Shown in pieces: positions 6,163-40,441 of a stretch of DNA of 64,000 bases; position 1 is the first letter of the stretch; each line of letters opens with the position of its first letter. Source of the stretch: Amoebidium appalachense (Eukaryota > Protista > Ichthyosporea). A program made the position numbers and the translations under genes. The notes below the pieces were generated by a model that did no database searches, was not told the origin of the DNA, and was given only the letters and a program-made list of their open reading frames with translations. The stretch covers positions 3,997,572 to 4,061,571 of the forward strand of contig CAVNZM010000008.1 of NCBI GenBank assembly GCA_963693365.1, given 5' to 3'.

Positions 6163-6546
6163 ACCCCCACACACACAAAAAAAAAAGATGGTCCATAACC
6201 AGTAGTTCCTACAACATGTGCATGTCAAAACGCATTGCTACAACATGTGCATGTGCAAAACGCATTGCTACCAACAGAGGCCGTGCAAAGATAACCTTAC
6301 CTCGAACGTCTCATGTGGAACCTCATCCAAAGCCTTTGGTGCATCACACAACTTTCCCTGCGAAAAACGATGCAACCACAGCCGATCGGCCACCAGAATG
6401 TGTGCAAGGGTGCGGTGCAGAGAGCCGAAGAAGACACCTCTGTCTTCGTTGTATTGTGTTGGAGAAAGTTTATTGGCAGCATTGTATAGGCACGTGTTGG
6501 CCCATGCGTTGTAGCGGGCGAACATTTGGTAGTGGCGGACACTCAT
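4467..6546 (-). CDS. DinB/YfiT-superfamily metal-binding protein (Bacillus-type damage-inducible DinB fold, not DNA polymerase IV), ~179 aa, exons 6546-6301 and 4760-4467
   Basis: Translation MSVRHYQMFARYNAWAN...DRGVFFGSLHRTLAHILVADRLWLHRF...|ELWAARQDMDNRII...LAHFFNHQTHHRGQ...MDLVYF carries the His triad of the family. Phase-0 GTAAGG..CAG intron; Kozak-like GCCGCCATCATG start. Confidence 0.92.
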
Positions 6547-7919
6547 GATGGCGGCAGATGTGTGTAATAAGTTAAGAAGAGTTAATAAAAAAAGAAGACT
6601 CTCAGGCTTCTATTATAGTTTATGCAAAAAAGAAAAAGCGTAAAAATTGGTTGGTGGGCCCGCTGCGTGAAAGAGAAAAGGAAAACTGAAGCGCCGTCGT
6701 AGCGCTGGCGCCGGGGGTTGTGGGGTTTTGGCTGCGCTACCCGTTTTACCTTGTAATCGTATTGTCAGAATTCGCCTGTTTTCTTGACAATCGTCGTGTA
6801 ATTTTTTTTTTTTGCTTGGTCCAGTGGATATGAAGGCAACGTGCAGCCACAGGCTACATGACCACCAAAATAACCGACTTCGAAAGAGCCACAGCGTTGA
6901 AATAAAAAATAAAACAACATGTGACCAAAGGACACCAGCGGGCAAAGGTACAAGTGCACGTGTTATGCGTGAAACTAGTTTGCTCCAACTAGTCATATGC
7001 AGCGATGATGACAGGCCACACTCCGCAAGAAGACATCATTACTGCTGCCCCCCAACAGCCCCCCCTCAAAACCTACCGGGGCACAGCAAGCAAGTCAGCC
7101 CTTTAAAGAGCAATGCAGACCAAATCCGAGCGAGAAAACAATCCCCGCGGGCCCGTCCCCTAGAAAACCCGCAGAAGCTGTCTCTAACTCTTTGATAAGG
7201 TGGCCTAGTTGTGGCAGGACACACAGGAAAACACAACTACAGAATGCATGCAAGCGAACCCAGTCATTGCCATACTGCTGAAGGCTGAAAACACGGCAGC
7301 CACAAGGAAAGCTCCTCGACGACCCAGTAGCTACCCTTCCACTCACGCAGCGCAGAAGCAGTTGAAGAAGTTGCAGCAGCCCACCGCCAGTAGCTCGCGT
7401 AGAAGCGTAGATAGCGTGTAGAAGTCACCGTAAGTTGCAGTGGGCCACCAGATGTCGAAGAAACCACTCCTCAAGCAAGAAAAATCCGCGGAAGGAAGAT
7501 GTCCCCATACTCTCACAGCATTAGGAATAGACAAGGCCGCATTACACACACACAGTGTCACGTTCCCCTGAGTGGGACCCCTTCCCACCACCAAAAGAAA
7601 AAACGAAAGCCTTTATATACCTGCCATGGTGAAGAATCGGGAAAAAAAGTTGACGTGACAGCTAAGACATCGAAGTAAAATTGAAGTCCCGTGTAAATTA
7701 GCTACTTATATTCATCCTTCCTCTCGTAAACCTACCACTCTTACTGATTTTGCCATTCTAACCCCTTCTTGTGATATTGCTTGGAAATGTTTATTTTGGC
7801 GGCCGTTGTCATCTTTGTTTCCATAAATGTTTTTGCCACTTTTGTGCAGAACCCTTTTCTCTGTAAACATTTAGATAGGTGTATTCATTTATCTCAGATT
7901 ATTCCGTTCAACTCGGAAG

Positions 7920-8057
7920 TTTTTTTTCTTTTGACTGGATTTATTCGACGGAAAGATATGCAAGTATGCACGGCATACTGAGAAGACAATAAAAAAACTT
8001 CACGAGTTATCCAGTAACAAGTGCATACTGAGATACCTGAACACTGTGTGAAAATCA
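7920..8057 (-). repeat. Native 3' end of the LINE (left arm of a ~140-bp inverted repeat)
   Basis: Reverse complement of 10498-10638 apart from a few substitutions and small indels. Confidence 0.93.
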
Positions 8058-10497
8058 CTTAAATACTCAATGTGACGACCAACAGAATTCAACAAAAAGC
8101 TAAAGTGGTCACATTGCCAGCCAGTGTAGCAGACACCCGTAGGGAAAGAGGTAAAACGCGACATAAAAATTCACACCTATCAACATGCTTGCGATTAAAA
8201 GGTTCAGCACAAAAGTTGCACCAGCGGCGATGAAAACAAAAATTACAACGCCACTGCACAACTTCCCAGGCAATATCAACATCAGAGCACCATCATACAG
8301 ACGTATCTACTAGCCTAAGGGTGGTATCCATACATACAGCAGGAGAAATATATCCTGCCAAAGCTCCCAAAAAGCGATAATGATCAGTACGGTGTTGCCT
8401 AAGGAACATAACACATGCCGACCGAGTTTTACCTTTGATTTCTCTATCAGAACGAGAAAGAAATGCAAAGAAACTTATACTGCGTATGGTAATAACGCGA
8501 AAAGGCAGAAAAAGCAGGAAGAGAAAAGAAAGAGGGAGTGAGATAGCGAGAGGAAGAATCAGGTTGAAAGAGGGTAGGCTGAGGACATTCAGAAGTAGCG
8601 TAACGGTTGGTGAACCGGGGGGGAAGAGGATGGAGGGAGCGGGGGGAAAGAAAGCTAGTAAAGAGGGTGACCATCAGGTATCCTAACTAAATGAAAACAA
8701 AAACGAAGAGACAATTCCTCCATACGCCAAACAGCAGACGACTCAATCCAAACATACTGATTAAGGGAGGCACAAACCGAGTACGAAACAAAGTGCGCAG
8801 CGCAGTACCCTGAAAATTGTCGAACTCTTTCAGCGCCACGGCCGCCTCGCGAGGTGGGGCGCAGGCCAATAGCGGAAGTCCATACTATTCGAAAGTCGGC
8901 CGTAAAAAAGTTTTATAGTAGAGAAGAAGGTTCGCAGGATGGATCACAGACTCCCGTTGAAACATATTTGACACGATGTGAAGCTTACCCTTCGCACGAG
9001 CGATCCGTGCCGTGAGGAGCTTGCGGAAATCAATACCCCGTGCAGTAAAAGGAATACCCAAATAGTCATAGGTGCTCCGAACAGGAATAGGAAGACCGGC
9101 CAATCGAAAGGAAGCGTTTTTCGAAAAAGTAGCACACTTTGCGATTCCGACTGTCATGAGATTCTCGGTGCACCATTGATCTTCCTGACGAAGCATCTGG
9201 TGCATGACATCTTCGGTTAAGGAACAAAGAACAATATCGTCCGCAAAAAGGAGACCCGGTACACGGCGGGTATGCAGTTGGCCAAAGGGTTTGAGGGCGC
9301 AGGCTAAATCGTCAATGAAAACGTCAAACAACAACGGACTCAGGAGGGACCCCTGCAGAAGACCCCGAGAACGGGAAAAACCGGGTGTTAATGTTCCATT
9401 GACCGCCGCTCGTCCGCGAGAGTGGTATCGAACAGCGCTTGCAGAAGACGGCCAAAGGGGGCTGGTAAGCCCTGCATAGCCAGCTTATGCCATAACAAAC
9501 CAGTGGGTACGGTGTCGTAGGCGTTCTTAAGGTCGATGAAGACAACGTGTGGAAAGCCAGAAGTAATGGATTCATGGAGTAACAGGCTGTGAGTATAACA
9601 CGAATAGGCATGACGAAAGCCCCCTTGAAGGGAAGAAAGACGGAACATGGCGTTTAAAGAATCGTCGGTGTTAAACGCGGAAGCATGCAACCCTCGAAGA
9701 GCCGACGAAAAACGTTGGTAAGTGTGACGGGACGAATTAGTTGTTAATGACCCCCTGCGATACCTTCTTACGAACGGGCGTAACGATTGTGTCAAGCCAC
9801 GAATTTGGAATAAACCCGAGTTCGAAAAAAGCCGGAAAAAACTCACTAAGAAGGACAGCAAAAGGCGGGGGCGGGGGGGACAGCTCTGCACGATTACGGG
9901 GCGGAAGCACGGGAGAAAGAACCTTGAAAAGCACGGGAGGAAGAGCATCCGGCCCGCACGCTTTGCGGGGGTTTAACACCCGTATAGCACCAAAAACAGC
10001 CGAAGAGTTGAAATAACTGTCAAAGGTGCCCGGGAACGATCGGTCCGGCTCCCAACTCGGCGGCTGGGAGAGGCTAGCGGGCGGTGATGGAACCGTGGAC
10101 ACGTTAGGAAGCGAAAATAGGGAAGCATAATAGTCATTGACGGATTCAGCGACGGAGATGGAAGGAGACGCGGCATAGACTTGCACGGAAGGCCCTAACC
10201 GACCGGCGGATTTCCAGACCGATAATGCTTCCTGTAGAGGCAACAACTGTCATAAGGACTGCAAAACGTGAGACTGTCTCAGCCGAACGGAAGGGCACTC
10301 AACCGTGCCCACCACCTGCTCGCCAAGGGCAAATAGAAACTCAACAAACTCATTATAACAAACCTCCAAAATAGCCGGGTTCCGCTGCGCGCGGGCGTCG
10401 CGCACTGCGGCAAGAAAGAAGCCATGAACCGACTCATACTCCTTGACGGCGAGTAACTGGTTTAACTTGTGCTTGAAACCGCGAGATAAGAGGCGGC
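8000..10497 (-). pseudogene. Disrupted LINE ORF2 (reverse transcriptase plus C-terminal Cys motif); no endonuclease domain visible in the retained part
   Basis: The RT is split over ORFs 10250-10534, 9737-10246, 9388-9948, 8885-9334 and 8687-8869, with frameshifts (near 9737, 9660, 9400) and an in-frame stop at 8885. Confidence 0.9.
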
Positions 10498-10712
10498 TGA
10501 TTTTCACACAGTGTTCAGGTATCTCATTATGCACGTGTTACAACTGGATAACTCGTGAAGTTTTTATTGTCTTCTCAGTATGCCGTGCATACTTGTATAT
10601 CTTTCCGTCGAATAAATCCAGTCAAAAGAAAAAAAAAAGTTTTTATTGTCTTCTCAGTATGCCGTGCATACTTGCATATCTTACCGTCGAATAAATCCAG
10701 TCAAAAGAAAAA
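10498..10712 (+). repeat. Inverted 141-bp copy (10498-10638) plus tandem 74-bp copy (10639-10712) of the LINE 3' end, each ending in an A-rich tail
   Basis: gtttttattgtcttctcagtatgccgtgcatacttg..gtcgaataaatccagtcaaaagaaaaa occurs twice in tandem. It contains the hairpin AGTATGC-cgt-GCATACT and AATAAA. Confidence 0.93.
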
Positions 10713-11192
10713 TTTTGCAAATCGTAATGGCGGGATTCGTCTCATTTACGACCCGTATAGACCCCCGATATTTTTAATGTTACAACTTTTTTGAAAAATA
10801 TTATACTACCTTAGCAATTACACACCCGATAGACAAAACAGGGCTTCGTATTCCCCTCTGGAGTGCCAAAAATAACCAACCACCTGACCACTTTTACCTG
10901 GGAAAGCACCCGTTTTTGTATGGAAACACACCAAAAACACTATTGTAGCCTATTTCACTGCTGCGAAAAACCAATACAGCACCTCGCAGCGCTACTCGTA
11001 TTGACCTCCTGGGCTTAATCATAAATATGACGATATTGAGTACGGTAATCATGGTGTTTCTAGATGGCCGTGGTCGTAATTCAACCCCTGGCTGGCGCCC
11101 AGCCTTGGCAAACTCCCGAGGTTTGGCCACAAAAATGACCCAATCATAAACATGAGAAAATAAAGATTAACCAAGTTTAGCTAAAGTGTGGT

Positions 11193-11230
11193 TTTTGGCG
11201 CGAAAATCCCAAATCATCCTGTGACGTCAC
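11193..11230 (+). promoter_or_regulatory. RAD50 upstream region: near-palindromic E2F site TTTTGGCGCGAAAA (11193-11206) and CRE/ATF palindrome GTGACGTCAC (11221-11230)
   Basis: Exact matches to well-known consensus motifs, 14 bp apart and ~370 bp upstream of the ATG. Function is inferred. Confidence 0.6.
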
Positions 11231-11579
11231 CGCAAAGATGCTGACTGTACGTACGTGCCAGGCGTGCAGTGTGCTCTGTTGAGTCTAACAAACCCCACCG
11301 ATTCCAAGTTTACGACCTGATGGTGAAGGAGGGTTATATGCTTACCGGTTTACTCACTTTATAATCTAGCTTGCAAACAGTTATATCTAGTGGGTTTCTC
11401 TATTTTCTTTCTTTCTTTCTTTTTTTTTTTCTTTTCTTTTTTTGTTGCAAAGGCCCACGCAGCAGTAGTTTTCACGCTGGCCCTCCCTCTCTTTGGCCTC
11501 TGAAGAAACACACACACACGTCGCCGCCGTCCACACTTGCACACGCACGCTTGTACAGCGTGTGCGTGTTGTTTCAGTC

Positions 11580-40441
<28,862 letters not shown>

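What the first reader, a model, noticed from the sequence alone, without database searches (positions are those of the whole stretch)
7920..10712. LINE insertion with a 3' end on both sides: inverted and tandem tail copies cap the truncated 5' end
Seen: a minus-strand LINE ORF2 reads into its natural 3' end (...HIEYLSDFHTVFRYLSMHLLLDNS*, UTR hairpin AGTATGC-cgt-GCATACT, AATAAA, A-tail at 7920). Its truncated 5' end at 10497 is fused directly to an inverted 141-bp copy of that same 3' end, which is followed by a further 74-bp tail copy. A-tails therefore point outward on both flanks, and I see no target-site duplication beyond possibly TTTT. In their coding part the arms differ by substitutions and an in-frame 3-nt indel (MHLLLDNS vs MHVLQLDNS). 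Established: L1 twin priming inverts internal 5' sequence but does not duplicate the 3' end. Inverted and partial-tandem 3' ends are a hallmark of Penelope-like elements, yet this RT has LINE-type motifs (KACGPD, DLKNAYD, QGSLLSPLLF, FADD). Inference: reverse transcription was primed independently on both ends of a break, with a template jump on the right (74 nt, then 141 nt), and the two cDNAs were joined head-to-head. This could be a family-wide symmetric integration mode or RT-mediated break repair.
Basis: partly seen in the sequence, partly recalled or inferred. Interest (0 to 1): 0.8.

Follow-up and report, generated by a model that had tools for sequence, protein, structure and literature searches.

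The report
Two LINE copies fused head-to-head
A broken copy of a very common jumping gene is joined head-to-head to a short second copy, with tails pointing outward into two different repeats, likely because two separate insertions were fused when the DNA between them was lost, an arrangement already known for human L1.

Summary
The structure is real: a minus-strand LINE (7920-10497, cut just after its endonuclease domain) abuts an inverted 141-bp copy of its own 3' end (94% identical) and a further 74-bp tail. The element is an ordinary high-copy LINE whose relatives carry an AP endonuclease, not a Penelope. The flanks are not two halves of one target: the left tail interrupts a second LINE in mid-ORF, whose expected continuation is absent from the window, and the right tail sits in a different repeat. 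So DNA was lost or rearranged, and the predicted empty site is unlikely to exist. Nothing suggests a family-wide symmetric mode: other copies continue past 10497 without the arm, and 0 of 20 related loci carry an inverted 3' end. The tandem tail recurs at the same T-run at other loci, so it is a separate family habit. Best reading: sequential insertions fused by a deletion (about 0.58). Rival: two simultaneous insertions joined into a two-tailed bridge, as shown for L1 in tumours and cell culture (about 0.22). No read spanning the central junction was seen. The scan's unreviewed notes describe outward-pointing retroelement ends on other DNA.

The parts
7698..7919 (+). Left target: C-terminal coding fragment of a second, diverged LINE (LINE-B), cut in mid-ORF by the left tail
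   Evidence: tblastn to P0001 residues 809-881; about 75% identical to 8173-8250 inverted; paralogs in 3 of 3 runs continue with a different sequence after 7908-7919
7920..7999 (-). 3' UTR (T7 run, 7-bp hairpin, AATAAA) and A8 tail of the long copy
   Evidence: sequence; tail ends joined to diverse flanks in runs X2, X14, X10
8000..10497 (-). 5'-truncated, frameshifted LINE ORF (linker, reverse transcriptase, C-terminal WR-C-C-H region); starts about 20 residues after the AP-endonuclease SDH motif of its closest relative
   Evidence: Pfam RVT_1; P0001 58% identity from residue 103 on, SDH at residue 79
10498..10638 (+). Inverted 141-bp arm: last 20 codons, UTR and A10 tail of a second copy of the same family
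   Evidence: 94.3% to 8057-7920
10639..10712 (+). Tandem 74-bp tail copy starting at G + T-run, A5 tail
   Evidence: 97% to 10560-10633; same type of junction at other loci (table 5c)
10713..11081 (.). Right target: a different, unclassified moderate-copy repeat, entered at a T-run
   Evidence: summed contig depth about 30-40 times the unique flank in X1 and X2; a paralog aligns from 10714 onward; no homology to the LINE 3' remainder

Best explanation
This is a head-to-head fusion of two copies of a high-copy LINE whose tails sit in two different repeats, likely made by two separate ordinary insertions followed by loss of the DNA between them. Shown: the three pieces, the absence of a target-site duplication, and the mismatch of the flanks. 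Inferred: one copy was written by target-primed reverse transcription into LINE-B at 7919, and another, on the other strand, into the repeat at 10713. A single deletion, made either during one of the insertions (retrotransposition-mediated deletion) or later between the inverted pair, then removed the rest of LINE-B, the head of the right-hand repeat and the 5' parts of both copies. The 74-bp tandem tail is inferred to be a separate, recurrent event. Either a new copy primed at the T-run in an existing copy's UTR and joined by homology, or the RT jumped template from that T-run to a new RNA 3' end.
For: Left flank encodes P0001 residues 809-881 and stops at the tail. Its paralogs continue differently (loose ends at 7908 in 3, 10 and 3 contigs of X2, X14, X10; agreement 0.76-0.96). 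That continuation is absent from the 64-kb window at up to 3 mismatches. The right flank aligns to the expected LINE remainder worse than 298 of 300 shuffles (score 23.5, shuffle mean 34.9). The family is abundant and nests freely: tails are joined to 7125, 7625, 9269 and 11051 of the stretch in other contigs, and at least 74 (X2) and 58 (X14) contigs leave the tail into flanks that agree only 0.39-0.50. One deletion explains four missing pieces at once. Deletions at inverted Alu pairs are documented (PMC3215922, passages).
Against: The pieces are about equally diverged (body 29 substitutions in about 1730 nt against X10 contig 15; arm 3 in 141; tail 1 in 74 against the left copy), which also fits one simultaneous event. 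The arm is fused with no spacer. No empty or intermediate allele was seen. The flank argument rests on 30-letter consensus ends and alignment limits, not on whole paralog sequences.
Confidence: 0.58

Rival explanations
1. Two insertions began at the same time at two different sites and their growing cDNAs were joined head-to-head, leaving a two-tailed bridge across a deletion, inversion or translocation.
For: Two outward tails, different flanks, no duplication, direct fusion, similar divergence of the pieces. This is the structure reported for L1 bridges flanked by two poly(A) tails (10.1101/2024.08.27.596794, passages) and reproduced with two reporters (PMC13526784 section 9 part 2).
Against: The end product cannot be told from sequential insertion plus deletion. 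Known cases come from cells with very high L1 activity. In a genome where the family nests constantly, sequential events have the higher prior (inference).
Confidence: 0.22
2. Reverse transcription was primed on both ends of one break at one site, with resection removing target DNA.
For: Two tails face outward. Two same-site double-RT insertions were seen in an L1 reporter assay (PMC13526784 section 9).
Against: Those cases had target-site duplications; here none exceeds 4 nt. The flanks belong to two different repeats, each interrupted, so a large loss is needed anyway.
Confidence: 0.08
3. The central junction is an assembly chimera between two loci joined through repeats.
For: No listed contig bridges 10497/10498; the arm-specific base at 10535 was not seen in X1 or X2, which match the unique flank exactly. 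A chimera would also explain unmatched flanks.
Against: There is no shared sequence at the junction for an assembler to slip on. In X14, depth 20.9 of 56.4 at 10535 lacks the common variant, so the arm's own base is probably present there. The window alleles of both outer flanks occur at single-locus depth in X2 (7916, 10792). The tool warns that a filter leaves records out.
Confidence: 0.07
4. The family normally integrates symmetrically, capping its 5' end with an inverted 3' end like Penelope elements.
For: Superficial likeness to inverted pLTRs (PMC3846280, passages). Only 15 of 60 joints were displayed, so rare similar events are not excluded.
Against: X10 contig 15 covers 8769-10497 and then has 19 non-arm letters (reading of record coordinates inferred from 30-nt contig overlaps). 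Summed depth just inside the junction is about 80-280 times the unique flank, while contigs laid on the arm-diagnostic base sum to about 0.4-6 times. No displayed joint is a body-to-arm head-to-head fusion. 0 of 20 related loci with a C-terminus and flanks have an inverted 3' end (distant relatives, 22-39% identity). No TSD; no Rfam match.
Confidence: 0.03

Closest known systems
Human L1 bridges with two poly(A) tails (Zumalave et al., bioRxiv 10.1101/2024.08.27.596794, passages read; Mendez-Dorantes et al., PMC13526784, abstract, passages and section 9 part 2 read)
   Same: One retrotransposon body with outward-facing tails on both sides, an orientation switch inside, flanks from different places, no ordinary TSD.
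   Different: Those are somatic or cell-culture events with matched reference alleles, often with reciprocal junctions. Here the locus is old (about 2% diverged, frameshifted), in a non-mammalian eukaryote, simultaneity is not shown, and a tandem tail is added.
Inverted Alu pairs and Alu-pair-exclusion deletions (PMC3215922, passages read)
   Same: Head-to-head neighbours from separate insertions, deletions that remove part of one or both, and elements that supply target sites for further copies.
   Different: Alu is a non-coding SINE with TSDs; here the pieces are LINE fragments fused without spacer.
Penelope-like elements with inverted and partial-tandem pLTRs (PMC3846280, passages read)
   Same: Inverted plus tandem terminal copies around an RT.
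   Different: RT is RVT_1/LINE-type with AP-endonuclease relatives, has a true poly(A) 3' end, no TSD around the unit, no Rfam ribozyme match, and the arrangement is not the family's normal form.
AP-endonuclease LINEs of fungi and protists (closest hits P0001 58%, P0002 40%, EukProt Amoebidium parasiticum protein P0010 35%; Atlas top cluster mostly Mucoromycota)
   Same: AP endonuclease + RT + C-terminal WR..C..C..H region in one ORF, poly(A) tail, heavy 5' truncation.
   Different: Clade (RTE group, L1, other) not determined: no named reference RTs were available for a tree; PDB R2 and L1 score alike.

Membership tests
AP-endonuclease non-LTR retrotransposon (LINE) | Non-LTR type reverse transcriptase | tested here: met
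   Pfam RVT_1 E=3e-12; closest relative hits R2 and L1 structures at E 4e-12 to 5e-9
AP-endonuclease non-LTR retrotransposon (LINE) | N-terminal AP endonuclease | tested here: inconclusive
   Missing from the window copy, which is cut after it. Present in relatives: GDxN in 29 and S/TDH in 30 of the 40 best hits including P0001; Pfam PF14529/PF03372 in 3 of 6 scanned. The family's own 5' part was not seen.
AP-endonuclease non-LTR retrotransposon (LINE) | Poly(A) 3' end at many unrelated sites, with depth falling towards the 5' end | tested here: met
   Diverse flanks at 7919-7923; summed depth falls about 30-100-fold from the 3' end to 10297-10453 in X1, X2, X14
AP-endonuclease non-LTR retrotransposon (LINE) | Target-site duplication at a clean insertion | tested here: not met
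   None over 4 nt at this locus; other copies not testable with short contigs
Penelope-like element | PLE-type RT with GIY-YIG endonuclease or none | tested here: not met
   Relatives carry AP endonuclease domains; none of 101 hits lists a GIY-YIG domain
Penelope-like element | Inverted/tandem pLTRs as the normal form, unit bounded by TSD | tested here: not met
   Other copies lack the arm at 10497; no TSD; no Rfam match in 6600-11500
Synchronous two-insertion bridge (L1-type) | Two outward tails with flanks from different sites | tested here: met
Synchronous two-insertion bridge (L1-type) | Both insertions absent in the ancestral allele; reciprocal junction or heteroduplication | not testable with these tools
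   No genome held; no long reads; no empty allele displayed
DNA transposon with terminal inverted repeats | Arm is a TIR independent of the cargo, with TSD | tested here: not met
   The arm is the LINE's own last codons, UTR and tail; no TSD
Fixed-length SINE derived from the LINE 3' end | Many copies sharing the 5' end at 8057 | tested here: not met
   No lasting depth step at 8057 in X2 or X14; apparent breaks there coincide with two private mismatches of the window at 8058-8059

The most novel reading that the evidence does not exclude
This LINE family often starts two insertions at once and joins the cDNAs head-to-head at variable points, so its genome holds many inherited two-tailed bridges that mark deletions and rearrangements, a germline counterpart of what is known from L1-active tumours; its RT also routinely re-primes in its own 3' UTR.
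Probability: 0.06. Interest if true: 0.65.

Novelty: new member of a known kind. Interest (0 to 1): 0.22.

Why it matters
If it is two insertions plus a deletion, it is ordinary turnover in a transposon nest. If it is a simultaneous bridge, it would be an inherited, non-mammalian example of a rearrangement type that the papers I read describe from human tumours and cell lines; one locus cannot show that. The most testable side result is the recurrent tandem-tail junction at the UTR T-run, which could separate self-targeted priming from template jumping in an AP-endonuclease LINE.

Tried and rejected
No whole genome is held, so copies could not be counted in an assembly. A 29-nt UTR pattern found nothing in metagenome contigs. 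No RNA holder is on record among the listed runs; this says nothing on expression. Fixed 141-bp SINE: suggested by joints ending at 8057, rejected after one search showed that nearly all copies differ from the window at 8058-8059, which breaks alignments there. The one displayed opposite-strand joint (7861/8057, in 3 of 4 runs) has both ends at window-private differences and is uninformative. Microhomology at the central junction: the P0001 alignment runs about four residues into the arm but needs a gap and gains almost no score; not counted. Folding of the 3' end: z = -1.8 (left), -0.9 (arm), -0.5 (tail), no clear structure marking the 74- or 141-nt limits. Inverted repeats of 30 nt or more occurred in 3 of 80 related loci; by position none is an inverted 3' end. 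Clade placement: not possible without named references; the search returned one paper, seen as a listing only. Earlier scan notes: none for this genome or this sequence. Literature searches for germline two-tailed LINEs returned no such case beyond the tumour paper, but the library lacks most subscription journals and I read no supplements, so absence in print is not claimed.

Full report
Observation. A minus-strand LINE runs from 10497 to an A8 tail at 7920. Directly after 10497 lies an inverted copy of its last 141 bases (94.3% identity, E=6e-57), then a 74-base tail copy ending at 10712. The ORF is broken by frameshifts and stops. No target-site duplication over 4 bases brackets the whole or the LINE alone.

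What the element is. The RT matches Pfam RVT_1. A search of longer proteins gave 101 relatives, many annotated with AP-endonuclease domains and none listing GIY-YIG. The closest, P0001, is 58% identical over 589 columns; the window copy begins at its residue 103, about 20 residues after the endonuclease SDH motif. Of the 40 best hits 29 have GDxN and 30 S/TDH. Named context is thin: an Amoebidium protein at 35% and an Atlas cluster mostly from Mucoromycota. The clade was not determined. Contigs from four public runs show a very abundant family with depth falling from the 3' end towards the 5' end; depth here is a sum over contigs, not a copy number. At the tail, the four listed places in X2 hold 74 contigs and those in X14 58, leaving into flanks that agree only 0.39-0.50 (169 loose-end rows not shown). 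This is a normal, heavily 5'-truncating LINE.

The flanks do not belong together. The left flank 7698-7919 encodes the C-terminal region of a second LINE on the plus strand (P0001 residues 809-881) and stops at the tail about 40 codons early. Paralogs of it in all three runs match through the last bases before the tail and go on with a sequence that is not in the window. The right flank does not resemble a LINE 3' remainder at DNA level (below the shuffle mean) or protein level (scores 17-22 against 44 for the element's own end). It is a different repeat, with a paralog that aligns from 10714 onward in X1 and X2 (read from the distances to the aligned end).

Not a family-wide structure. In run X10 one contig covers 8769-10497, lacks several of the window's frameshifts, and carries 19 further letters that do not match the arm (I read the record coordinates as running along the record's own strand, from 30-base overlaps between neighbouring contigs). 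Summed depth at 10297-10453 is 3627, 14808 and 2834 in X1, X2, X14, against 47, 190 and 10 for unique flank contigs, whereas contigs laid on the arm-diagnostic base 10535 sum to 251, 70 and 56. Of 60 joints 15 were displayed, and 12 of 35 rows with inserted letters; none is a body-to-arm head-to-head fusion, but the undisplayed rows are unknown. Among 80 related loci from metagenomes, 20 had the ORF end with flanks and 0 of 20 had an inverted copy of the 3' region, while 9 had direct repeats involving it; these are distant relatives and include near-duplicates.

The tandem tail is a separate habit. displays seven tail-after-tail joints in X2 (two rows not shown). Four start at the UTR T-run (7994-7997), one at the only other T-run in the last 160 bases (8054, also in X14), one at 7957 and one at 8076. 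Four of seven within 5 bases has a chance of about 0.003 under uniform breakpoints (window chosen after seeing the data). One of the four may be this locus; the others differ in A- and T-run length. Consensus flanks right after tails are mostly T-rich on the sense strand (weak because agreement is low), as is the right flank here. A copy that primes at the T-run of an existing copy and joins by homology would give exactly this duplication; so would a template jump (known for R2; I saw only the reference title in PMC2881922). The data do not separate them.

Mechanism. The simplest history is two ordinary insertions on opposite strands into neighbouring repeats and one deletion, at the second insertion or later, that removed everything between 10497 and the arm (about 0.58). 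The left copy carries the 7-T UTR variant and the right copies the 5-T variant, which makes up 214 thousand of 568 thousand depth in X2, in line with different source copies. The main rival is a simultaneous pair of insertions whose cDNAs were joined (about 0.22); similar divergence of the pieces fits this as well, and the end products are the same. One-break priming (0.08), an assembly chimera (0.07) and a family-wide mode (0.03) remain minor. X14 differs from the window at five unique-flank positions yet probably has the arm's own base at 10535, so the structure may predate that split and no empty allele was displayed.

Comparison with what is known. L1 bridges flanked by two poly(A) tails, made by two concurrent insertions, are reported in tumours (10.1101/2024.08.27.596794, passages) and reproduced with reporters, including deletions and two same-site cases that kept target-site duplications (PMC13526784). 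Junctions between oppositely oriented L1 pieces are discussed in 10.1101/2024.12.14.628481 (passages). Deletions at inverted Alu pairs are described in PMC3215922 (passages). Penelope elements show inverted and tandem ends with TSDs and a GIY-YIG endonuclease (PMC3846280, passages); this locus looks like them in outline but fails those tests. Supplements were not read.

Verdict. A real but most likely one-off rearrangement in a nest of transposons, of a kind already described. Interest 0.22; a long-read census of the family is what could raise it.

Noticed in passing
window 6268-6609 (-): DinB-family open reading frame (Pfam PF05163, E=3e-12) in this eukaryotic window, divergent from RAD50; a family common in bacteria (recalled), so possibly a transferred gene.
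   Followed up: no
window 11582 onward (+): Start of a RAD50/SMC-type ATPase gene (AAA_23 E=2e-8; RAD50 name recalled from the N-terminal motif), apparently interrupted by an intron right after the Walker A motif.
   Followed up: no
window about 7000-7690: A very high-copy unclassified repeat with a boundary near 7690; tails of the LINE are joined to it at 7125 and 7625 in other contigs. No clear terminal repeats.
   Followed up: partly
window 10713-11081: Moderate-copy unclassified repeat; LINE tails are joined to paralogs of it at other positions (10831, 11051).
   Followed up: partly
window 7865-7978: In run X10 another, more diverged contig joins a LINE-B-like sequence ending at 7906 to an inverted tail, perhaps a second insertion at a similar position in a LINE-B paralog.
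   Followed up: no
window 26058-26652: Short exact local duplications (83 nt and 65 nt at 100% identity).
   Followed up: no
L004, L010, L014, L016, L019, L030 downstream of the ORF: Related LINEs in metagenome contigs carry tandem repeats of 50-200 nt in their 3' regions.
   Followed up: no
L071:764-2218: A 39-bp terminal-inverted-repeat insertion interrupts a related RT gene, probably a DNA transposon.
   Followed up: no
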